64,000 nt of DNA from an uncultured Bacteroidota bacterium (GTDB lineage Bacteria > Bacteroidota > Bacteroidia > Chitinophagales > UBA2359): contig CALCIK010000228.1 in assembly GCA_937907475.1 (NCBI GenBank), forward strand, positions 5,050 to 69,049, read 5' to 3'. The position numbers and the translations under genes are program-made. The notes beneath the pieces are model-generated. The model saw only the letters and a program-made list of their open reading frames with translations. It had not been told where the DNA came from and did not search any database. Of this stretch, positions 3 to 8,324 are shown in pieces (position 1 is the stretch's first letter; each line of letters starts with the position of its first letter).

Positions 3-2255
3 AGCTTTGCGCAGTATTTTGGCATAGGCAGCCCTGTTTTGGTGGTGCAAAACAAAATAGATGCCACCTCCCATTTACACGACCCCTACCCGTATCCAAG
101 AGTTCAAAATGAGTTAAAAACTAAATTTCCCGCCATAGTTGATTTTATAGGGGTAAGCACCAAAACAGGCAAGGGTTTTATAGTACTGGCAGATGCCATA
201 GAGCGTTTGTTTACCGAAAACCCCACCCTCCGCAACGATTTATTAAACAAGCCCCTGCCCAAAACATGGTTGCAAGTGCGCCACCGCATACGCCAAGAGC
301 AAGAAAACGAAAAAGGCTTAGACCTTATACCTTTCAGCCTTTTTGAACAATGGTGCCATGATGCTGGCATAGCCGCTTCTGCCCCCACCCTTGCCCATTT
401 TTTACACCAAACCGGCGTTGTGTATTACCAACCTCCCTATTTTTCTGGGCAAATTATCCTAAATCAGGCATGGGCAATAGAAGCCGTTTACCAAGTCCTT
501 GACCGCGAAGGCGATTATTTTGAGATATTGGAATATCGCCAAGGAACATTAGATTATACTACCCTATGCAGAATTTGGGCAAAAAATACCAATGATGAGC
601 GTAACTTGTTTATAGATTTTATGTTGAGCAGCGAGTTGTGTTTTGAAACCACCCCAAACAAAAAATACCATACGCCCTTACAAGAGCGCACTTTTACCGT
701 ACCACAAGCTTTGCCCCCCACAGAGCCGCCCTCTATTGCCACAGAGCAAACCCGCCTGCAAGCAAATGAAACTATTACACGGTCTTATACCTTTTTACCC
801 TCCATCTTTATACAGCGTTTTATGATTAGGGCGCATCGATTTTCGGAACATCGGTATATGTGGCAGCACGGCATCGGTTTATATAATACTGATGAAGCGT
901 ATGCCGTAGTAAGGGCAAATTATACGCACGGTCAGCACACCATTACCATTCATTACAATGCAGCCGCCGTAGCCAGCAAATTGCTACAAGCTATAGAAGA
1001 AGAAGTGCAAATTTTAGAAGCCGAAGATAAAGACCAATCTAAACCATTTAAAGAAAAATCGGGTTTTAAAGCATTGAACTATTATCAAAAACCAAAAACT
1101 GAATCAGTTATGTCCCAAAACAAACTTAACCTTTTCATTTCGTACTCGCCCGAAGATGAAACCTTTAAAAAAGCATTTGATAAGCATTTAACAAGCCTTA
1201 GACGAAGTGAGCAAATTGCTACTTGGGATAGCAGTAACGTGTTGGCAGGCAGTAATTTAAGCTCTGCCATAGAAGGCCTTCAAAATGCCCATGTCATTCT
1301 AATTTTAGTAAGTACCAACTACATTTCAGATGATAAATTGTGGAAACAGCATTTGCTAAATGCTATATATCGGCATGAACGAGGTTTTGCCCGCATAATC
1401 CCCATAAAAATTACCGATTTTGACGATAAAAATCTCCCCTTCAGCAAAATACAGGGACTGCCCCGAAATGGAAAAGCCATAGGCTCACCTAACAACAATG
1501 CAGCATGGTTAGAAGTAGCCAAAGAAATTCGCGCAGTGGTAGAGGATATGTTGGCAAAAGGCATTGGCGTTCAAAATAATATACCACCACAGTACAAGCA
1601 AGAAGGACAGGGTAATAACAAACCAAAGGATAACCCATATCCACAGAGCAAAGAGAAGAAAAAAGTACTCTTTATTTGCTCCAGCCCAAGTAATGTGGAT
1701 GTAACCCTAAATTTTGGTACCGAGTTTCGAAATATCGCAGATGCGCTCAATAGTAGCTCTCATAGGCAAAAATTCAACATCTCTATTAAAACCGGTGTAC
1801 AATTTGACGAACTTACACGGTTGTTATTACAAGAAAAATCCGATGTACTGCATATTTCCATGCACAGTTCACTTGAAAAAGGTGGTTTATTATTTGAGTA
1901 CAAAGATAGCAGCTTACAACCGCTTAACCCTGAATCCCTAACAGGTATGATACGAATTGCAAACTACCAATTAGATTTGGTAGTTTTGAGCGCTTGTAAC
2001 TCAAAAGCTCACGCAGTAGCTGTTGCCAGCCTTACTACTGTTGCAAATGTAATTGGCATGAATGATTTAATTTCGGACGAAGCGGCAGCTTATTACGCTG
2101 AGAAATTTTATGAAATTTATTTTGACCATCAAAATGTCTTGCAAGCTCACCAAAATGCTCAAGAATCGTTAAAAGCTAACAGCAGAATTGGAGATCATAC
2201 TATCTTTGCGGAAGTTCCTTATATCCAAAAATTAAACAACCACATACTACCATGA
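3..2255 (+). CDS. Roco-family protein, 5'-truncated by window edge: (Roc GTPase end)-COR-TIR-linker-CHAT caspase-like protease
   Basis: Frame is open from base 3 (SFAQYFGIGSPVLVVQNKID) and is collinear with the paralogue at 5482. Roc G4 NKID and G5 VSTKTG; COR motifs LPKTWLQVR, FLHQTGVVYY, ILNQAWAIEAVYQVLD; TIR LFISYSPED...IIPIKI...PFSKIQGLP; CHAT KVLFICSSP, DVLHISMHS (His codon 1863) and LVVLSACNS (Cys codon 1995). Confidence 0.92.
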   Translation, partial: SFAQYFGIGSPVLVVQNKIDATSHLHDPYPYPRVQNELKTKFPAIVDFIGVSTKTGKGFIVLADAIERLFTENPTLRNDLLNKPLPKTWLQVRHRIRQEQENEKGLDLIPFSLFEQWCHDAGIAASAPTLAHFLHQTGVVYYQPPYFSGQIILNQAWAIEAVYQVLDREGDYFEILEYRQGTLDYTTLCRIWAKNTNDERNLFIDFMLSSELCFETTPNKKYHTPLQERTFTVPQALPPTEPPSIATEQTRLQANETITRSYTFLPSIFIQRFMIRAHRFSEHRYMWQHGIGLYNTDEAYAVVRANYTHGQHTITIHYNAAAVASKLLQAIEEEVQILEAEDKDQSKPFKEKSGFKALNYYQKPKTESVMSQNKLNLFISYSPEDETFKKAFDKHLTSLRRSEQIATWDSSNVLAGSNLSSAIEGLQNAHVILILVSTNYISDDKLWKQHLLNAIYRHERGFARIIPIKITDFDDKNLPFSKIQGLPRNGKAIGSPNNNAAWLEVAKEIRAVVEDMLAKGIGVQNNIPPQYKQEGQGNNKPKDNPYPQSKEKKKVLFICSSPSNVDVTLNFGTEFRNIADALNSSSHRQKFNISIKTGVQFDELTRLLLQEKSDVLHISMHSSLEKGGLLFEYKDSSLQPLNPESLTGMIRIANYQLDLVVLSACNSKAHAVAVASLTTVANVIGMNDLISDEAAAYYAEKFYEIYFDHQNVLQAHQNAQESLKANSRIGDHTIFAEVPYIQKLNNHILP

Positions 2256-3061
2256 GTGAATTTCAAACAATTTTACAGAGTTACCACTATAATAGTGTAG
2301 TGCTACCCAGAACAGGCATAAAGCCACTACAAATGTTGAAACAAGACCAAAAAGGCACTGTTACTTCATTAGACATGAACATAGATGATTTTTTTAAGCC
2401 CGATATTGTGGCGAAGCCTAGCACTAAAACCGAAAAAGTCATCAGCATACAAGATGAACGCAAAGTAGATGTTAATGGCAAAGTAGATATTAGTTTTTTG
2501 GAACAACTACTTGCTAAATTTGGAATAGGCAGTATAAATGCCCATTTTAAATCAGCACCAAATTTTACTATTAGGGTTGGTATCAACAATATTGAAGTAG
2601 ATACAATTGGGCTTGGAACATTAGATAGATTTCTTAGTACTTCCATTTTACAAGAAAAAGAATTCGGGACATGGGGGAAAGAATTAAAAGATAGTAATTT
2701 GTTCGTAATAACCAGTGTTTTGAAATCAAATGAAATAAACATCACCGTTGAATCAAACAGCAGTTTAGACACCGGTGCTGCAGTTAAATTAGAAAACATC
2801 ATTGATTTCAATGCCGGCTATGACAAAACAAATCTAAAAGATTATAGTCTGAAACACGAAAGTGAGAGCGAGCAAATGGTATTCGGAATTAGAGGCGTTA
2901 GGATAAACTATGACAAACCGGGCTTGTTTGACCGCAGTGAAAAAGTCCGATTTACCATAGGAAAAGAGCTCAATAATGTTGTCATGAAAGGCGTAGAAGA
3001 TATAGAACCAATTTGGTTAGACGCTACTAATTGGGATTTAACACCACCTGTTCGCGACTAA
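2252..3061 (+). CDS. bGSDM: Bacterial gasdermin (pore-forming effector)
   Basis: 269 aa. YNSVVLPRTGIKPL, NLFVITSVLKSNEI and MVFGIRGVRI match recalled bGSDM motifs (Runella YSLVAYPKTSIRPL, NFFVATSLLRAKKM, IVFGVKLVRL). Short C-terminal tail after VVMK/G. ATGA overlap with the CHAT protease gene. Confidence 0.88.
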   Translation: MSEFQTILQSYHYNSVVLPRTGIKPLQMLKQDQKGTVTSLDMNIDDFFKPDIVAKPSTKTEKVISIQDERKVDVNGKVDISFLEQLLAKFGIGSINAHFKSAPNFTIRVGINNIEVDTIGLGTLDRFLSTSILQEKEFGTWGKELKDSNLFVITSVLKSNEINITVESNSSLDTGAAVKLENIIDFNAGYDKTNLKDYSLKHESESEQMVFGIRGVRINYDKPGLFDRSEKVRFTIGKELNNVVMKGVEDIEPIWLDATNWDLTPPVRD

Positions 3062-3063
3062 TA

Positions 3064-3135
3064 ATGTCTGCCCCGTTTTTTATTTCCCCCTATCGGAAAA
3101 GCACCCCCGTTACCCCCAAGGATTTATATAGGTAA
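3064..3135 (+). other. 23-codon mini-ORF coupled to the gasdermin stop; possible N-terminal relic of a deleted gene
   Basis: ATG lies 2 nt after the gasdermin TAA; MSAPFFISPYRKSTPVTPKDLYR*. Confidence 0.35.
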
Positions 3136-3181
3136 TAGCGTGCAACTTTATGTTGCTTCGTGTTCTTTGTATTTCACCTCG

Positions 3182-3220
3182 TTTGCTTGGTGGTTAGCAA
3201 CCATTTAACCACCAAGCAAA
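3182..3220. repeat. Perfect 15-bp inverted repeat with 9-nt loop
   Basis: tttgcttggtggtta-gcaaccatt-taaccaccaagcaaa; no U-tract on either strand. Confidence 0.85.
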
Positions 3221-3223
3221 TAA

Positions 3224-3424
3224 AGGCGGGCACAAAACGCACAAAAGTATACTGCGCCAAGCCTTAAACCAAGCCCCCAAGATGATATAGAAATTGTACA
3301 GTTGCAAGCCCGCCTCAGCAGTGTAGAACAGCAAGAGTGCCTGGGTACTATCTCCTATGACAATGCCCGATTAGAGAAGAACCAAATTACCGCCGCCCTG
3401 CTTAGTTGGTTAGGCAAACAATAA
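3224..3424 (+). pseudogene. EAD11-like (effector-associated domain) relic, start-less
   Basis: Open frame with no ATG: ...DDIEIVQLQARLSSVEQQECLGTISYDNARLEKNQITAALLSWLGKQ*. It matches the recalled EAD11 pattern I..L.AR...L......G.IS...A....N.I..ALL. Confidence 0.65.
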
Positions 3425-3426
3425 GT

Positions 3427-3456
3427 TTTGCAAATTTTATTATTTGGTTATTTTTG
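3427..3456 (+). promoter_or_regulatory. Bacteroidota sigma-70 promoter for the second Roco gene
   Basis: TTTG (3427-3430), 18-nt spacer, TATTTTTG (3449-3456), about 55 nt before the ATG at 3510. Confidence 0.55.
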
Positions 3457-3509
3457 TGCAAAGAGAAGGGAAGCCTTACAAAACTCCTGTAATTCTTAAT
3501 CCATAAGCC

Positions 3510-6500
3510 ATGAGCCAACTTGCCTTAGACCTTATAACCCAAGAAGCCACACAAAAAACCGGCTACCTTGAACTGGGTAAATGCGGACTAACCCCCGACA
3601 ACCCTCAGCTGCAACAAGTATGGAAGGAATTAGGTAAACTCAGCCACTTGCAAACACTGATTTTGAGTGATGCGTGGTGGGAGTGGGATGGTGAAAAGAA
3701 ATATTGGAAAGAAAAGCAAAGTCAAAATTCAGGAAACGATAACTTTTTGGCAGAACACCCCGATACGCTGCAAGAATTGTATAATTTAACAACCTACATT
3801 TGCGGGGGATTTCGGGATAATAGATGGCAAATAAGCAAAATCCCCCAATTTGCCAGCCCCAATAAATTGCTATACTTATATTTAAGTGTCAATCAAATTG
3901 CCCGAATAGAAAACCTAGAAAACCTGCCCGATTTGCAGGTATTAGACCTTAGCGGTAACCAATTCACTAAGATAGCAAACTTAGATAACCTGCCCAAGTT
4001 GGAGCGGTTAAACCTTAACAACAACTACCTCACCAAGATAGAAAACTTAGATAACCTGCCTAAGTTGCAAGAGTTAATGTTTGGTTACAACCAACTCTCT
4101 AAGATAGAAAACTTAGAGAGGCTGCCCAATTTGCAGGGGTTATTCCTAAACAACAATCAACTCAGCATTATAGAAAACTTAGATAGGCTACCTAAATTGA
4201 AAAAGTTAGCCCTTGTAAATAATAAAATTGCTAAAATAGGGACTACGTTTGACTTGCCTTGTTTAGAAAAATTAGACCTAAGCAAACATCAACTTACCAA
4301 AATAGAAAATTTAGATAAACTGCCCAATTTACATGAGTTAGACCTAAGCCATAATTACCTCACCAAGATAGAAAACTTGGATAGTTTGTATAATTTACAA
4401 GTGTTGAACCTTGAAAGCAACCAACTCACCAAGATTGAAAACTTAGATAACCTGCCCAATTTGCATGAACTAAAATTTGGGAGTAATCAACTTGCCAAGA
4501 TTGAGAACTTAGATAACTTACCTAAGTTAAAAAAACTGTATTTTAGTTTAAGGTTTTCTCCAAATTATGGGAACGCACTCGCTAAGATTGAAAACTTAGA
4601 TAATCTATCAAATTTGGAGGAGTTATATCTTGGAGGCAACCGCATCACCAAGATAGAAAACTTAGATAGACTATCTAATTTACACAGATTAGATATTTGG
4701 GCTAACTCACTCACTAAAATAGAAAATTTAGACAACCTACCAAATTTACAATGGCTAACTCTTGGTAATAATGGAATTACCAAAATAGAAAATTTAGACA
4801 ACTTATTACTACTAAAAACTTTAGACCTCAGCGTCAATCTAATCACCAAGATAGAAAACTTAGATAAGCTGCTCAATTTGCAGGGGTTATTTCTTAACTT
4901 CAACCAACTCACCAAGATAGAAAATTTAGATAGCTATCTCAATTTGCAGGGGTTAGACCTTAGCAATAACAAAATCACCACCCCCATTACCCTTACCTTC
5001 TTGCGGCAGTTCCCTAAATTGTATTCGTTAAATTTGAGCAGTAACCCCATATCCAATATCCAATCCGAAATAATTTCGGATAGTGATTGTTTACCCACCC
5101 TACGCACCTACCTACAAGACTTAGAAGAAGGCGGCGAACCCAACAACGAAGTAAAAGTACTGTTTATAGGCAATGGTAATGTGGGCAAAACACAAATAGC
5201 CGGGCGCTTGGCGTGGCAAGATAAGTTTGTTTTTAATATACAACACCACTCTACTCATGCCATTTGTTTGCTTAGGCGGCATTTACCCACCACCCTGCTA
5301 CCACAAGGTTTGCAACTCAACCTTTGGGATTTTGGGGGGCAAGCTATGTACCATGCTACTCACCGTTTGTTTATGCGCACCCGCGCCTTGTTTTTATTGG
5401 TTTGGGACAAAGAAAACGAAGCCGCTCCGTACCATATTTGGGAAAACCGGCAGTACAACAATGAAAAACTGCTCTACTGGCTCAGTTATGCGCAGTATTT
5501 TGGCAAGGGTAGCCCTGTTTTGGTGTTACAAAACAAAAAAGATGCCACCGCCCATTTACCCGACCCCTACCCGCCGCTGCCGGTACAGCGGGAGCTAAAA
5601 AACAAATTTCCCGCCATAGTTGATTTTATATGGGTAAGTGCTAAAACCGGCAATGGTTTTAGAGTGCTGGTAGATACCATAGAGCGTTTGTTTACCCAAA
5701 ACCCCACCCTCCGCAACGATTTAGTAAACAAACCCCTGCCCAAAACTTGGTTGCAAGTGCGCCACCGCATACGCCAAGAGCAAGAAAAAGAAGAAGGCTT
5801 GCCCATTATACCGTTCAGCCTTTTTGAACAATGGTGCCAAGATGCCGGCATAGCCACCTCTGCTCCTACCCTTGTCTATTTTTTACACCAAACCGGGGTT
5901 TTGTATTACCAACCTCCCTATTTTTCGGGGCAAATTATCCTAAATCAGGCATGGGCAATAGAAGCTGTTTACCAAGTCCTTGACCGCGAAGGCGATTATT
6001 TTGAGCTATTGGAACATTACCAAGGAAAATTAGATTATACCACGCTATGCAAAATTTGGGCAAAAAATACCAATGATGAGCGCAACTTGTTTATAGATTT
6101 TATGTTGAGCAGCGAGCTGTGTTTTGAAACCACCTCATTTGAAAAATACAATGCCAGCTTACAAGAGCGCACTTTTACCATACCGCAAGCATTGCCCACC
6201 ACAGAGCCGCCCACTATTGCCACAGAGCAAACCCGTCTGCAAGCAACTGAAATTGCTACACGATCTTATGACTTTTTACCCTCCGTCTTTATACAGCGTT
6301 TTATTATTAGAGCGCATCGGTTTTCGGAGCATCAGGATATGTGGCAGCATGGCATTGGTTTGTCTTATACTAAAGAAGATTACGCCGTAGTAAGGGCAAA
6401 TTATACGCTCGGTCAGCACACCATTACCATTCATTACAACCCAGCCGCCGATGCAAGTGGATTACTAAAAGCCATTCAAGAAGAACTGCAAATTTTAGAA

Positions 6501-7061
6501 GCCGAAGATAAAGACCAACCTAATCTATTTAAAGAAAATTCGGGTTTTAAAGCATTGAATTATTACCAAAAACAGGAGATTAAGCCACTCATGACCCAAA
6601 ACAAACTTAACCTTTTCATTTCGTACTCGCCTGAAGATGAAGCCTTTAAAAAAGCATTAGATAAGCATTTAACAAGCCTTAAACGAAGTGAGCAAATTGC
6701 TACATGGGATAGCAGTAACGTTTTAGCAGGCAGCAATTTAAGCTCTGCCATAGAAAGCCTTCAAAATGCCCATGTCATTCTAATTTTAGTAAGTACCAAC
6801 TACATTTCAGATGATAAATTGTGGAAACAGCATTTGCTAAATGCTATATATCGGCATGAACGAGGTTTTGCCCGCATAATCCCCATAAAAATTACCGATT
6901 TTGACGATAAAAATCTCCCCTTCAGCAAAATACAGGGATTGCCCCGAAATGGAACATCCATAGGCTCACCCAACAACGATGAAGCATGGGTAGAAGTAGT
7001 CAAAGAAATTCGCGCAGTGGTAGAGGATATGTTGGGAATAGGCATTTGTATTTTTCGGTAA
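3510..7061 (+). CDS. Roco-family protein LRR-Roc-COR-TIR (no protease domain)
   Basis: About 18 SDS22-like 22-aa LRRs. Intact Roc motifs GNGNVGKT (G1), LWDFGGQ (G3), QNKKD (G4), VSAKTG (G5). COR domain, then a C-terminal TIR ending 10 codons after the TIR helix. No signal peptide. Confidence 0.93.
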   Translation: MSQLALDLITQEATQKTGYLELGKCGLTPDNPQLQQVWKELGKLSHLQTLILSDAWWEWDGEKKYWKEKQSQNSGNDNFLAEHPDTLQELYNLTTYICGGFRDNRWQISKIPQFASPNKLLYLYLSVNQIARIENLENLPDLQVLDLSGNQFTKIANLDNLPKLERLNLNNNYLTKIENLDNLPKLQELMFGYNQLSKIENLERLPNLQGLFLNNNQLSIIENLDRLPKLKKLALVNNKIAKIGTTFDLPCLEKLDLSKHQLTKIENLDKLPNLHELDLSHNYLTKIENLDSLYNLQVLNLESNQLTKIENLDNLPNLHELKFGSNQLAKIENLDNLPKLKKLYFSLRFSPNYGNALAKIENLDNLSNLEELYLGGNRITKIENLDRLSNLHRLDIWANSLTKIENLDNLPNLQWLTLGNNGITKIENLDNLLLLKTLDLSVNLITKIENLDKLLNLQGLFLNFNQLTKIENLDSYLNLQGLDLSNNKITTPITLTFLRQFPKLYSLNLSSNPISNIQSEIISDSDCLPTLRTYLQDLEEGGEPNNEVKVLFIGNGNVGKTQIAGRLAWQDKFVFNIQHHSTHAICLLRRHLPTTLLPQGLQLNLWDFGGQAMYHATHRLFMRTRALFLLVWDKENEAAPYHIWENRQYNNEKLLYWLSYAQYFGKGSPVLVLQNKKDATAHLPDPYPPLPVQRELKNKFPAIVDFIWVSAKTGNGFRVLVDTIERLFTQNPTLRNDLVNKPLPKTWLQVRHRIRQEQEKEEGLPIIPFSLFEQWCQDAGIATSAPTLVYFLHQTGVLYYQPPYFSGQIILNQAWAIEAVYQVLDREGDYFELLEHYQGKLDYTTLCKIWAKNTNDERNLFIDFMLSSELCFETTSFEKYNASLQERTFTIPQALPTTEPPTIATEQTRLQATEIATRSYDFLPSVFIQRFIIRAHRFSEHQDMWQHGIGLSYTKEDYAVVRANYTLGQHTITIHYNPAADASGLLKAIQEELQILEAEDKDQPNLFKENSGFKALNYYQKQEIKPLMTQNKLNLFISYSPEDEAFKKALDKHLTSLKRSEQIATWDSSNVLAGSNLSSAIESLQNAHVILILVSTNYISDDKLWKQHLLNAIYRHERGFARIIPIKITDFDDKNLPFSKIQGLPRNGTSIGSPNNDEAWVEVVKEIRAVVEDMLGIGICIFR
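3861..5060 (+). repeat. Intragenic 66-bp LRR tandem array
   Basis: Repeating (T)KIENLDNLPxLxxLxLxxNQL unit, DNA 'accaagatagaaaacttagat'; one repeat has a 7-aa insertion (SLRFSPNYGN). Confidence 0.9.
5482..7046 (+). repeat. Direct repeat of bases 1-1565 (paralogous Roc-COR-TIR segment)
   Basis: Constant offset of 5481 bp with no indels (1 to 5482; ggcatt at 1560 to 7041); high but patchy identity. Confidence 0.93.
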
Positions 7062-7457: not shown

Positions 7458-8324
7458 ATGCCTACTCCTACTATTAAGAATTACCTCTCCTTAATTAAGT
7501 TCAGCCATACTATTTTTGCATTGCCTTTTGCGGTGGTAGGATTTTTTTTAGCTACCCAACATTTTCATTATCCTTTTGAGTGGTATAAGTTATTGTTAGT
7601 GGTGTTGTGTATGGTTTTTGCACGAAGTGCCGCAATGGCTTTTAACCGGTATGCCGACTACCGATACGATGCTCAAAACCCGCGTACTGCAATTCGCGAA
7701 ATTCCGGGGGGTATTATCCGACCAACCAATGCACTGCTGTTTGTGGTGGTCAATTGTTTGTTGTTTGTAGCAGCAACTTGGTTTATCAATCCGCTTTGTT
7801 TTTACCTTTCTCCTGTGGCGTTGTTGGTCGTTTTGGGATACAGCTACACTAAGCGGTTTACCGCCCTTTGCCATTTTATACTCGGTATCGGGTTGGGGTT
7901 AGCACCCGTTGGCGCTTTTTTGGCTGTCAGCAGCCAATTTGAATGGCTGCCGGTGCTGTTTGGTTTTGCAGTCTTGTTTTGGGTGAGTGGCTTTGATATT
8001 ATCTATGCCCTGCAAGACGAAGAGTTTGACAAAACGCTGGGTCTCAACTCCATCCCCGCTTGGTTGGGTAAGAAAAAAGCCTTGTATCTTTCAAACGCTT
8101 TGCACTTCATTTCTGCCATGTTTATCATTGGAGCAGGTGTTCTTGCCGACTTTGGAATTTGGTATTGGGTAGCCTCATCGGTATTTTTAGGGCTGTTGTT
8201 TTACCAACATACGCTTGTTTCACCTACCGATTTGAGCAAGGTAAATCTCGCCTTTTTTACTACTAATGGCATTGCAAGCGTTACATTTGCCGTGTTGGTG
8301 TTGATAGAGTTATTTGTGGGTTAG
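7458..8324 (+). CDS. ubiA: UbiA-family 4-hydroxybenzoate polyprenyltransferase (MqnP-like)
   Basis: LIKFSHTIFALPFA, MAFNRYADYRYDAQNPRT, GFDIIYALQD motifs; multi-pass membrane protein. Confidence 0.88.
   Translation: MPTPTIKNYLSLIKFSHTIFALPFAVVGFFLATQHFHYPFEWYKLLLVVLCMVFARSAAMAFNRYADYRYDAQNPRTAIREIPGGIIRPTNALLFVVVNCLLFVAATWFINPLCFYLSPVALLVVLGYSYTKRFTALCHFILGIGLGLAPVGAFLAVSSQFEWLPVLFGFAVLFWVSGFDIIYALQDEEFDKTLGLNSIPAWLGKKKALYLSNALHFISAMFIIGAGVLADFGIWYWVASSVFLGLLFYQHTLVSPTDLSKVNLAFFTTNGIASVTFAVLVLIELFVG

What the first reader, a model, noticed from the sequence alone, without database searches (positions are those of the whole stretch)
3..7061. Roco-GTPase-gated gasdermin system: Roc-COR-TIR-CHAT protease, gasdermin and a protease-less LRR-Roc-COR-TIR partner
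Seen: a Roc-COR-TIR protein ending in a CHAT domain with His (codon 1863) and Cys (codon 1995) overlaps the start of a 269-aa gasdermin-like gene by ATGA. A second Roco gene with ~18 LRRs, an intact GTPase and a TIR but no protease follows. Established: bacterial gasdermins are anti-phage pore formers released by cleavage of a short C-terminal peptide, often by adjacent caspase-like CHAT proteases. Roc-COR (LRRK2/Roco family) is a GTP-dependent dimerisation switch. Inference: LRRs sense a trigger, the Roc-COR cycle controls oligomerisation, CHAT is activated by proximity, and gasdermin pores kill the cell. This would be an inflammasome in which a Roco GTPase replaces the usual STAND/NLR ATPase. 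I know of no functionally characterised Roco-controlled gasdermin system.
Basis: partly seen in the sequence, partly recalled or inferred. Interest (0 to 1): 0.96.

Follow-up and report, generated by a model that had tools for sequence, protein, structure and literature searches.

The report
Roco-GTPase caspase-like protease with gasdermin
This is a real three-gene cell-suicide island: a sensor/GTPase/caspase-like protease, the pore-forming gasdermin it most likely cleaves, and a second sensor without a protease. It is the same kind of system as the already studied Runella gasdermin system, with two new twists.

Summary
With the upstream 1.8 kb added, gene 1 is a 1356-aa LRR-Roc-COR-TIR-CHAT protein (His1227/Cys1271). 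It overlaps by ATGA a 269-aa bacterial gasdermin (PADLOC bGSDM E=3.5e-33; gasdermin fold). Gene 3 is a 1183-aa LRR-Roc-COR-TIR paralog with an intact GTPase and no protease.

The three genes form a 9.8-kb accessory insertion between sucC and ubiA, which are adjacent in three same-genus genomes. Roc-COR-CHAT directly upstream of a gasdermin recurs in a second locus of this genome and in at least five other Bacteroidota lineages.

The novelty claim fails. The best-studied bacterial gasdermin protease, from Runella zeae, is itself an LRR/Roc-COR/CHAT protein shown to cleave its gasdermin. Only the GTPase's role is untested.

Two things are new here:
- A TIR domain sits between COR and CHAT, with His in place of the catalytic Glu. 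The paralogous locus has an EAD11 adaptor domain in that position, so the TIR is probably an adaptor and not an NADase.
- A protease-less sensor paralog has a TIR 96-97% identical in DNA to gene 1's, while its LRRs have diverged.

Verdict: new variant of a known kind; moderate interest.

The parts
3..2255 (+). 3' 750 codons of gene 1. The complete gene starts 1816 nt before the window, at C228:3234, and encodes a 1356-aa LRR-Roc-COR-TIR-CHAT protein.
258..1019 (+). COR-A and COR-B domains of gene 1
   Evidence: Pfam PF16095 1.1e-23 and PF25497 5e-11
1107..1562 (+). TIR domain of gene 1. The His codon at 1350-1352 (His1056) stands where the catalytic Glu of TIR NADases aligns.
   Evidence: TIR_2 1.5e-10; PADLOC ThsB-like 6.8e-27; profile alignment to AbTIR/Cat1; family alignment
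1719..2189 (+). CHAT caspase-like protease domain; catalytic His codon 1863-1865 (His1227), catalytic Cys codon 1995-1997 (Cys1271)
   Evidence: Pfam CHAT 1.3e-10; dyad invariant in 8 relatives; PDB SAVED-CHAT 8tl0 E=9e-20
2252..3061 (+). Bacterial gasdermin, 269 aa. Its start overlaps the gene 1 stop (ATGA). The conserved C-terminal tail includes [KR]-G at 246-247 and PIWL at 253-256.
3062..3509 (.). 448-nt spacer between the gasdermin and gene 3. Similarity to the region upstream of gene 1 starts only about 28 nt before the start codon.
   Evidence: consensus scans uninformative
3510..7061 (+). Gene 3: 1183-aa LRR-Roc-COR-TIR paralog of gene 1 without a protease. Its TIR has the same Glu-to-His change (His1108, codon 6831-6833).
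3837..5069 (+). LRR array of gene 3 (about 17 units of 22 residues), the most diverged part relative to gene 1
5154..6500 (+). Roc GTPase (P-loop Lys560, DFGGQ, NKKD) and COR-A/B of gene 3
   Evidence: PDB C. tepidum Roco and LRRK2
7458..8324 (+). ubiA-family prenyltransferase: the first housekeeping gene to the right of the island. The island is C228:2717-12506, and its right end is at window 7457.

Best explanation
This is an accessory 9.8-kb island carrying a Runella-type bacterial gasdermin cell-death system.

Shown by sequence:
- Gene 1 joins about 15 LRRs, a Roc GTPase with intact G motifs, COR-A/B, a TIR domain whose catalytic Glu is replaced by His, and a compact 190-aa CHAT protease with an intact His/Cys dyad.
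- It is translationally coupled to a gasdermin with a short C-terminal tail.
- Gene 3 repeats the LRR-Roc-COR-TIR module with a different LRR surface and no protease.

Inferred:
- The LRRs recognise an infection-derived cue.
- The Roc-COR nucleotide cycle converts recognition into a change of oligomeric state.
- The non-enzymatic TIR acts as a homotypic assembly or adaptor domain, as the EAD11 domain does in the paralogous locus.
- Assembly brings CHAT domains together and activates them. The closest solved CHAT, SAVED-CHAT, is switched on by filament formation.
- CHAT removes the last roughly 20-35 residues of the gasdermin. My guess for the site is at the conserved [KR]-Gly 246/247.
- The freed gasdermin forms membrane pores and kills the cell before phage release.
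- Gene 3 is most likely a second sensor that has no executioner of its own and uses gene 1's TIR-CHAT through TIR-TIR and/or COR-COR contacts. This would be a sensor/helper pair.

Confidence is about 0.85 for the core (a protease-activated gasdermin system of the Roc-COR-CHAT kind). It is about 0.55 for the TIR as adaptor and about 0.4 for gene 3 as a coupled sensor.
For: - Domains and motifs.
- Gasdermin identity and fold.
- Translational coupling (ATGA) here and in L010/L032, L030 and G026.
- Recurrence of (LRR)-Roc-COR-[TIR|EAD11|linker]-CHAT directly upstream of a gasdermin:
  - the second own-genome locus C45;
  - MAG GCA_002344145 / ERZ761602;
  - Logan contigs;
  - a Chitinophagales MAG, G026;
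  - Phaeodactylibacter and Saprospiraceae MAGs.
- Published biochemistry of the same architecture in Runella.
- Accessory status: sucC and ubiA are adjacent in 3 same-genus genomes, and homology breaks exactly at the sucC stop and the ubiA start. The gasdermin was found in 3 of 61 related genomes and 4 of 401 phylum genomes.
- TIR: the catalytic Glu column holds His in gene 1, gene 3 and P0007/L032. It holds Glu in five other TIR paralogs of this genome and in P0014-P0016. The TIR occupies the position of EAD11 in C45/P0008.
- A separately encoded TIR(no Glu)-caspase lies beside the closest outside relative of gene 3.
- The closest solved CHAT is oligomerisation-activated SAVED-CHAT.
- Gene 3 is under purifying selection (dN/dS 0.2-0.4). 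Its TIR is 96-97% identical in DNA to gene 1's, against 57-76% in the LRRs.
Against: - There is no functional data for this locus.
- GTPase gating is untested even in Runella. The Runella preprint does not mention GTP, and the protease was active on overexpression and in vitro without an added trigger.
- From my own knowledge, GTP binding monomerises C. tepidum Roco. A simple 'GTP means oligomerise' model may therefore be backwards.
- The Glu-to-His call rests on profile alignments, not a structure. P0007 has a Glu one residue earlier.
- The low synonymous divergence of the TIR is only modestly significant (4/48 against 17/70 four-fold sites, p=0.03).
- A gasdermin-proximal second Roco was seen in only one other locus, and there the contig ends before its C-terminus.
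- Five other Roco-CHAT genes have no gasdermin next to them.
- The flanking genes are housekeeping genes, not other defence genes.
Confidence: 0.8

Rival explanations
1. Gene 3 is an independent LRR-Roc-COR-TIR defence protein with its own TIR effector activity (NAD+ depletion or signal synthesis). It sits beside the gasdermin system only because defence genes cluster.
For: LRR-Roc-COR-TIR proteins without a protease are a common stand-alone architecture (P0016 context). This genome has several more. Kaur et al. list TIR among the effector domains of such GTPases.
Against: The TIR of gene 3 has His at the catalytic Glu column, while stand-alone relatives keep Glu. Its TIR is nearly identical to that of gene 1. 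The duplication unit ends exactly at the TIR/CHAT junction.
Confidence: 0.2
2. Gene 3 is a negative regulator or decoy. By pairing with gene 1 through COR/TIR it keeps the CHAT protease from self-associating until a trigger removes it. In that role it would act like an antitoxin or guard.
For: It shares a near-identical interaction module (COR-TIR) with gene 1 and lacks a protease. Overexpressed Runella protease without such a partner is constitutively toxic with its gasdermin.
Against: Most gasdermin-linked Roco-CHAT loci have no such partner. Gene 3 keeps a full, diverged LRR array and an intact GTPase, which fits a sensor better than a plug.
Confidence: 0.15
3. The locus is not an anti-phage system. 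It would instead be a regulated cell-death or kin-conflict module of filamentous or social Bacteroidota, triggered by non-viral cues.
For: Kaur et al. tie these NTPase conflict systems to multicellular prokaryotes. The flanks are housekeeping genes. Several bGSDM operons were tested for phage plating in E. coli in Johnson et al. (legend of fig.
Against: The patchy, strain-variable distribution and the swapping of sensor cassettes between near-identical loci are typical of defence genes under an arms race. One relative lies beside a type I restriction-modification methylase and a helicase.
Confidence: 0.1
4. Gene 3 is a decaying partial duplicate with no function.
For: It arose by duplication of the LRR-Roc-COR-TIR part of a gene-1-like gene.
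Against: It has an intact 1183-codon frame, intact G motifs and dN/dS of 0.2-0.4 in every domain. No CHAT remnant lies downstream. Natural relatives end at the same point after the TIR (P0014).
Confidence: 0.07

Closest known systems
Runella zeae bGSDM with its Roc-COR-CHAT protease (Johnson et al., bioRxiv 10.1101/2021.06.07.447441; Su et al. 2026, PMC13475620)
   Same: An LRR + Roc-COR NTPase + C-terminal CHAT protease is encoded directly upstream of a roughly 268-aa gasdermin with a short inhibitory tail. In Runella, cleavage and pore formation were shown.
   Different: No TIR is mentioned in the Runella protease descriptions read here, and it has only 7 LRRs. The Runella gasdermin has a palmitoylated Cys3, while this one has no N-terminal Cys. 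The gasdermins are distant (phmmer E=3.5e-5). No protease-less partner is described. The role of the GTPase is untested in both.
Prokaryotic AP-GTPase (LRR-Roc-COR-effector) conflict systems (Kaur, Burroughs, Iyer, Aravind; PMC7159879, PMC8195603)
   Same: Rapidly evolving LRRs + Roc-COR + a variable C-terminal effector or EAD (TIR, caspase and EADs are listed), with many paralogs per genome. This genome has at least 9 Roc-COR genes.
   Different: Those papers are purely computational and do not mention gasdermin (0 occurrences). They do not describe TIR used as an internal adaptor in front of a protease.
SAVED-CHAT of the Haliangium type III-B CRISPR/CBASS hybrid (PDB 8tl0; 10.1101/2023.06.23.546230)
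   Same: It is the closest solved CHAT domain (E=9e-20). The protease is switched on by sensor-driven oligomerisation.
   Different: Its sensor is a cA3-binding SAVED domain, not LRR-Roc-COR. Its substrate is a second caspase, not a gasdermin.
CARD-containing gasdermin system of Lysobacter (PMC10312443)
   Same: An NTPase sensor, an adaptor domain, a protease and a gasdermin: inflammasome-like logic with a dedicated adaptor.
   Different: It uses a STAND/NLR-like ATPase, trypsin-like proteases and a CARD-like adaptor on separate proteins. Here a Roco GTPase, a TIR or EAD11 domain and a CHAT are fused in one chain.
Chlorobium tepidum Roco / human LRRK2 Roc-COR
   Same: The Roc-COR tandem is homologous (PDB 3dpu/6hlu E~1e-23; LRRK2 E~1e-11).
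   Different: Those proteins have no protease, TIR or gasdermin partner. In LRRK2 the output is a kinase.

Membership tests
Bacterial gasdermin (bGSDM) | Sequence match to bGSDM profiles and solved bGSDMs | tested here: met
   PADLOC bGSDM 3.5e-33; PDB 7n51/8sl0 2e-12; profile 3e-27; Pfam Bact_GSDM precomputed
Bacterial gasdermin (bGSDM) | Gasdermin N-terminal-domain fold | tested here: met
   The model has moderate confidence (pLDDT 58, pTM 0.60). Its top 18 Foldseek PDB hits are all gasdermins; the best is 7n51, E=1.6e-10, TM 0.57.
Bacterial gasdermin (bGSDM) | Short C-terminal inhibitory peptide removed by an adjacent protease | tested here: inconclusive
   About 33 residues follow the last core strand, with conserved [KR]-G and PIWL motifs. 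The adjacent CHAT protease is present. Cleavage itself cannot be tested here.
Bacterial gasdermin (bGSDM) | N-terminal palmitoylated cysteine (present in Runella and some other bGSDMs) | tested here: not met
   The N-terminus is MSEFQT... with no Cys. The paralog P0006 starts MPNLHE.... From my own knowledge, this feature is not universal in the family.
Roco proteins (Roc-COR) | Roc GTPase immediately followed by COR-A/COR-B | tested here: met
   Pfam Roc, COR-A and COR-B in both genes; PDB C. tepidum and M. barkeri Roco and LRRK2
Roco proteins (Roc-COR) | Intact G1 (GxxxxGKT), G3 (DxxGQ) and G4 (NKxD) motifs | tested here: met
   GNGNVGKT / DLGGQ or DFGGQ / NKID or NKKD in genes 1 and 3
Roco proteins (Roc-COR) | Nucleotide-dependent change of oligomeric state | not testable with these tools
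   Needs biochemistry
CHAT / clan CD caspase-like protease | CHAT domain with a catalytic His...Cys dyad | tested here: met
   Pfam CHAT 1.3e-10; His1227 and Cys1271 invariant in 8 relatives; 8tl0 E=9e-20
Runella-type Roc-COR-CHAT/gasdermin system | Roc-COR-CHAT protease gene directly upstream of, and co-directional with, a gasdermin | tested here: met
   ATGA overlap here; the same arrangement is found in 6 further loci
Runella-type Roc-COR-CHAT/gasdermin system | Protease cleaves its cognate gasdermin and the pair is toxic | not testable with these tools
   Shown only for Runella
TIR NADase / signal-producing TIR (Thoeris ThsB-like) | TIR fold or domain | tested here: met
   TIR_2 1e-10; PADLOC ThsB 7e-27; PDB Cat1, AbTIR, MyD88
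TIR NADase / signal-producing TIR (Thoeris ThsB-like) | Catalytic glutamate in the alpha-C region | tested here: not met
   In the profile alignment the Glu of AbTIR and Cat1 aligns with His1056 (gene 1) and His1108 (gene 3). There is no Asp or Glu in LWKQHLLNAIY. Other TIR paralogs keep Glu.
TIR NADase / signal-producing TIR (Thoeris ThsB-like) | Partner effector that reads the TIR signal (ThsA-like) | tested here: not met
   The island holds only three genes between sucC and ubiA.
CARD-type (Lysobacter) gasdermin system | STAND/NLR-like ATPase, trypsin-like proteases and a CARD-like domain | tested here: not met
   No such domains are present in the island.

The most novel reading that the evidence does not exclude
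This would be a bacterial sensor/helper pair built on Roco GTPases.
- A protease-less LRR-Roc-COR-TIR sensor (gene 3) and a protease-bearing paralog (gene 1) co-assemble through a catalytically dead TIR domain.
- That TIR is kept nearly identical in the two genes by gene conversion.
- Two different LRR specificities then fire one CHAT protease and one gasdermin.

TIR would be acting as a pure assembly adaptor in bacteria, as in animal MyD88/TLR signalling. It would be interchangeable with EAD11, and the LRR-Roc-COR cassettes would be swappable between otherwise near-identical loci.
Probability: 0.33. Interest if true: 0.72.

Novelty: new variant of a known kind. Interest (0 to 1): 0.45.

Why it matters
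Roc-COR GTPases are the core of human LRRK2, and how their nucleotide cycle controls an output domain is still debated. Bacterial Roco-CHAT/gasdermin systems offer a simple lethal read-out for that switch.

This locus adds a natural experiment to the known Runella system. It has the same switch with and without the protease, different LRRs, and a TIR domain that seems to have lost catalysis and become an adaptor. If the pair works as sensor and helper, it would extend to GTPase-based bacterial systems the paired-receptor logic known from plant and animal NLRs. It would also show non-enzymatic TIR scaffolding outside animals.

If not, it remains a well-documented further member of the gasdermin defence family.

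Tried and rejected
- The first related-loci scan of genome contigs, with a two-sequence gasdermin alignment, found nothing. A broader alignment found 3 loci, and the metagenome scan found 3.
- The search for homologous proteins with the gasdermin gave only one relative, because of the word index.
- I looked for a CHAT remnant downstream of gene 3. There is none; homology to gene 1 stops 15 nt before the gene 3 stop.
- I looked for gasdermins beside five other Roco-CHAT genes with an HMM built from 11 gasdermins and found none. Roco-CHAT therefore does not always imply a gasdermin.
- The Nei-Gojobori dS values first suggested a steep 5'-to-3' gradient. Four-fold degenerate sites showed that only the TIR is clearly less diverged, so I weakened that claim.
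- Sigma-70 promoter and terminator scans of the three spacers were uninformative. Bacteroidota promoters are not covered by that tool.
- Thoeris membership was considered because of the ThsB hit and rejected: there is no ThsA and no catalytic Glu.
- Earlier scan notes held nothing for this genome.
- The exact cleavage site could not be fixed. The alignment to Runella stops at residue 243 of the Runella protein, just before its Leu247 site.

Full report
**What is there**

The window begins inside a gene. The reading frame 3..2255 encodes COR-A, COR-B, TIR_2 and CHAT domains. The window is C228:5050-69049 of its assembly, so I fetched the upstream sequence. The complete gene (C228:3234-7304) encodes 1356 residues: about 15 leucine-rich repeats of 22 residues, a Roc GTPase, COR-A/B, TIR and CHAT.

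They are invariant in eight related proteases.

The gene's stop overlaps the start of a 269-codon gene (ATGA at 2252-2255). That product is a bacterial gasdermin by every test:
- PADLOC bGSDM, E=3.5e-33.
- Solved Vitiosangium and Runella bGSDMs.
- A moderate-confidence AlphaFold model whose top 18 PDB matches are all gasdermins.

It has no N-terminal cysteine, so it lacks the palmitoylation site of the Runella protein.

After a 448-nt spacer comes gene 3 (3510..7061). It encodes 1183 residues: about 17 LRRs, Roc with intact GNGNVGKT/DFGGQ/NKKD motifs, COR-A/B and TIR, with no protease.

The Roc-COR parts match C. tepidum and M. barkeri Roco and LRRK2.

**The island**

Upstream of gene 1 lies sucC. 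Downstream of gene 3 lie a UbiA prenyltransferase, RlmN, RuvB and a SPOR protein.

In three genomes of the same genus, sucC and ubiA are neighbours, 51 to 596 nt apart. Homology to those genomes stops at the sucC stop codon and resumes at the ubiA start. The three genes are therefore a 9.8-kb accessory insertion with no integrase.

Relatives of the gasdermin occur in 3 of 61 related genomes and 4 of 401 genomes of the phylum. This patchy distribution is typical of defence genes.

**Recurrence**

The same genome has a second locus on contig C45. It encodes a 1240-aa LRR-Roc-COR-EAD11-CHAT protein followed by a gasdermin 38% identical to the first.

Outside this genome, a Roc-COR-CHAT gene sits directly upstream of a gasdermin in these places:
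- A MAG and an ENA contig that carry the TIR version. The TIR is 64%, the CHAT 59% and the gasdermin 44% identical to the window's, but the Roc-COR is only 25% identical.
- Logan contigs with the EAD11 version.
- A Chitinophagales MAG.
- Phaeodactylibacter and Saprospiraceae MAGs.

Of eleven gasdermin loci of this subfamily that I could read:
- seven have Roc-COR-CHAT upstream;
- three have a CHAT protein without Roc-COR;
- one short contig shows none.

The converse does not hold. Five other Roco-CHAT genes have no gasdermin beside them.

**What is already known**

- The preprint of Johnson et al. calls the Runella zeae gasdermin protease 'Roc-COR-CHAT'.
- It shows that this protease and its gasdermin are toxic together, that the catalytic residues are needed, and that the purified protease cuts the gasdermin after Leu247.
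- A 2026 paper describes the same protease as seven LRRs, an NTPase domain and CHAT. It states that the role of the NTPase awaits discovery.
- Kaur and colleagues catalogued bacterial LRR-Roc-COR proteins with TIR, caspase, EAD and about 20 other C-terminal domains as conflict systems with many paralogs per genome. They did not mention gasdermin.
- I found no paper in the library that tests GTP control of a gasdermin protease.

**What is new here**

*The TIR domain.* In a profile alignment to solved TIR enzymes, the catalytic Glu of AbTIR and Cat1 falls on His1056 of gene 1 and His1108 of gene 3. The surrounding LWKQHLLNAIY has no acidic residue.
- The other gasdermin-linked TIR-CHAT protein also has His there.
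- Five other TIR paralogs in this genome keep Glu, as do the relatives P0014, P0015 and P0016, which have no gasdermin beside them.
- In the C45 locus and its relatives, the same position between COR and CHAT is held by EAD11, one of the proposed homotypic adaptor domains.
- The closest outside relative of gene 3 lies beside a separately encoded TIR-caspase whose TIR also lacks the Glu.

Together these observations point to a TIR used for assembly and not for NAD+ chemistry.

*Gene 3.* It is a duplicate of the LRR-Roc-COR-TIR part of a gene-1-like gene.
- DNA similarity starts 28 nt before the start codons and ends 15 nt before the gene 3 stop, exactly at the TIR/CHAT junction. No CHAT remnant is left.
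- All domains are under purifying selection (dN/dS 0.2-0.4).
- Nucleotide identity is 57-76% across the LRRs, 83-93% across Roc-COR and 96-97% across the TIR.
- At four-fold degenerate sites the TIR differs at 4 of 48 positions, against 35 of 154 in Roc plus COR. This suggests homogenisation of the TIR, but the statistics are modest (p=0.03 against Roc).

*Modular exchange.* A metagenomic contig shares 95% DNA identity with the C45 flank and 92% with its EAD11-CHAT-gasdermin part. Its LRR-Roc-COR part is only about 40% identical in protein. It also has a further Roco gene after the gasdermin, whose N-terminus is 61% identical to gene 3. The sensor/switch cassette is therefore swapped independently of the adaptor-protease-gasdermin cassette.

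**Mechanism**

Shown by sequence and by analogy to Runella: a CHAT protease with an intact dyad is translationally coupled to a gasdermin that has a short C-terminal tail.

Inferred:
- The LRRs sense a cue.
- Roc-COR changes oligomeric state.
- The dead TIR helps assembly.
- CHAT domains are activated by proximity. The closest solved CHAT domain is that of SAVED-CHAT (E=9e-20), which is activated by ligand-induced filament formation.
- The tail of the gasdermin is cut somewhere between residue 237 and the conserved PIWL motif. My guess is at the conserved [KR]-Gly 246/247.
- Pores then kill the cell.

I rate gene 3 as most likely a second sensor that borrows gene 1's protease. The alternatives are an independent TIR protein, a negative regulator or a dying duplicate.

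Two cautions apply:
- In C. tepidum Roco, GTP binding favours the monomer (my own knowledge), so the direction of the switch is open.
- The Runella protease is active without a known trigger when overexpressed.

**Verdict**

The system belongs to a kind that is already described and partly characterised. The TIR-as-adaptor feature, the protease-less paralog and the cassette swapping make it a new variant of moderate interest.

Noticed in passing
G000 contig C45 (L005) 1796-6354: There is a second Roco-CHAT/gasdermin locus in the same genome: a 1240-aa LRR-Roc-COR-EAD11-CHAT protein plus a 267-aa gasdermin. The Roc-COR is 63%, the CHAT 58% and the gasdermin 38% identical to the window's genes.
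   Followed up: yes
L011 1-6840 versus L005: A metagenomic contig is 92-95% identical in DNA to the C45 flank and to its EAD11-CHAT-gasdermin part. Its LRR-Roc-COR part is only about 40% identical in protein. A further LRR-Roco gene starts 256 nt after the gasdermin, and the contig ends there.
   Followed up: partly
L022 8109-8915 (G026) and L029 5164-5595: In two other Roco-CHAT/gasdermin loci, an FGE-sulfatase (formylglycine-generating-enzyme-like) gene follows the gasdermin. Kaur et al. have proposed this domain as a sensor or effector in conflict systems.
   Followed up: no
L025 3064-12819: This island holds a TIR(no catalytic Glu)-Peptidase_C14 gene, an LRR gene and a Roc-COR-TIR gene (probably one split gene), an EAD11 protein and nSTAND/AAA_35 NTPases. 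It is a possible case of TIR coupling a Roco sensor to a separate caspase.
   Followed up: partly
L035 1217-8029: A Roco-CHAT gene is followed after 31 nt by a second LRR-Roc-COR gene (1213 aa) with no gasdermin. Tandem Roco pairs therefore also occur without gasdermins.
   Followed up: partly
G000 contigs C36, C85, C66, C169, C108, C31: The genome has six more Roc-COR paralogs (24-26% identical). Three of them (C36, C169, C31) lie next to or are fused to TIR domains that keep the catalytic Glu.
   Followed up: partly
L010 6490-7094 / L032 7017-7392: Downstream of the gasdermin there are repeated hairpin-containing elements and a tandem array of about 33-nt units. They were not analysed.
   Followed up: no
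L038 3172-3747: A 191-aa protein with no Pfam match lies 14 nt after a Roco-CHAT gene that has no gasdermin. It could be an alternative protease substrate.
   Followed up: no
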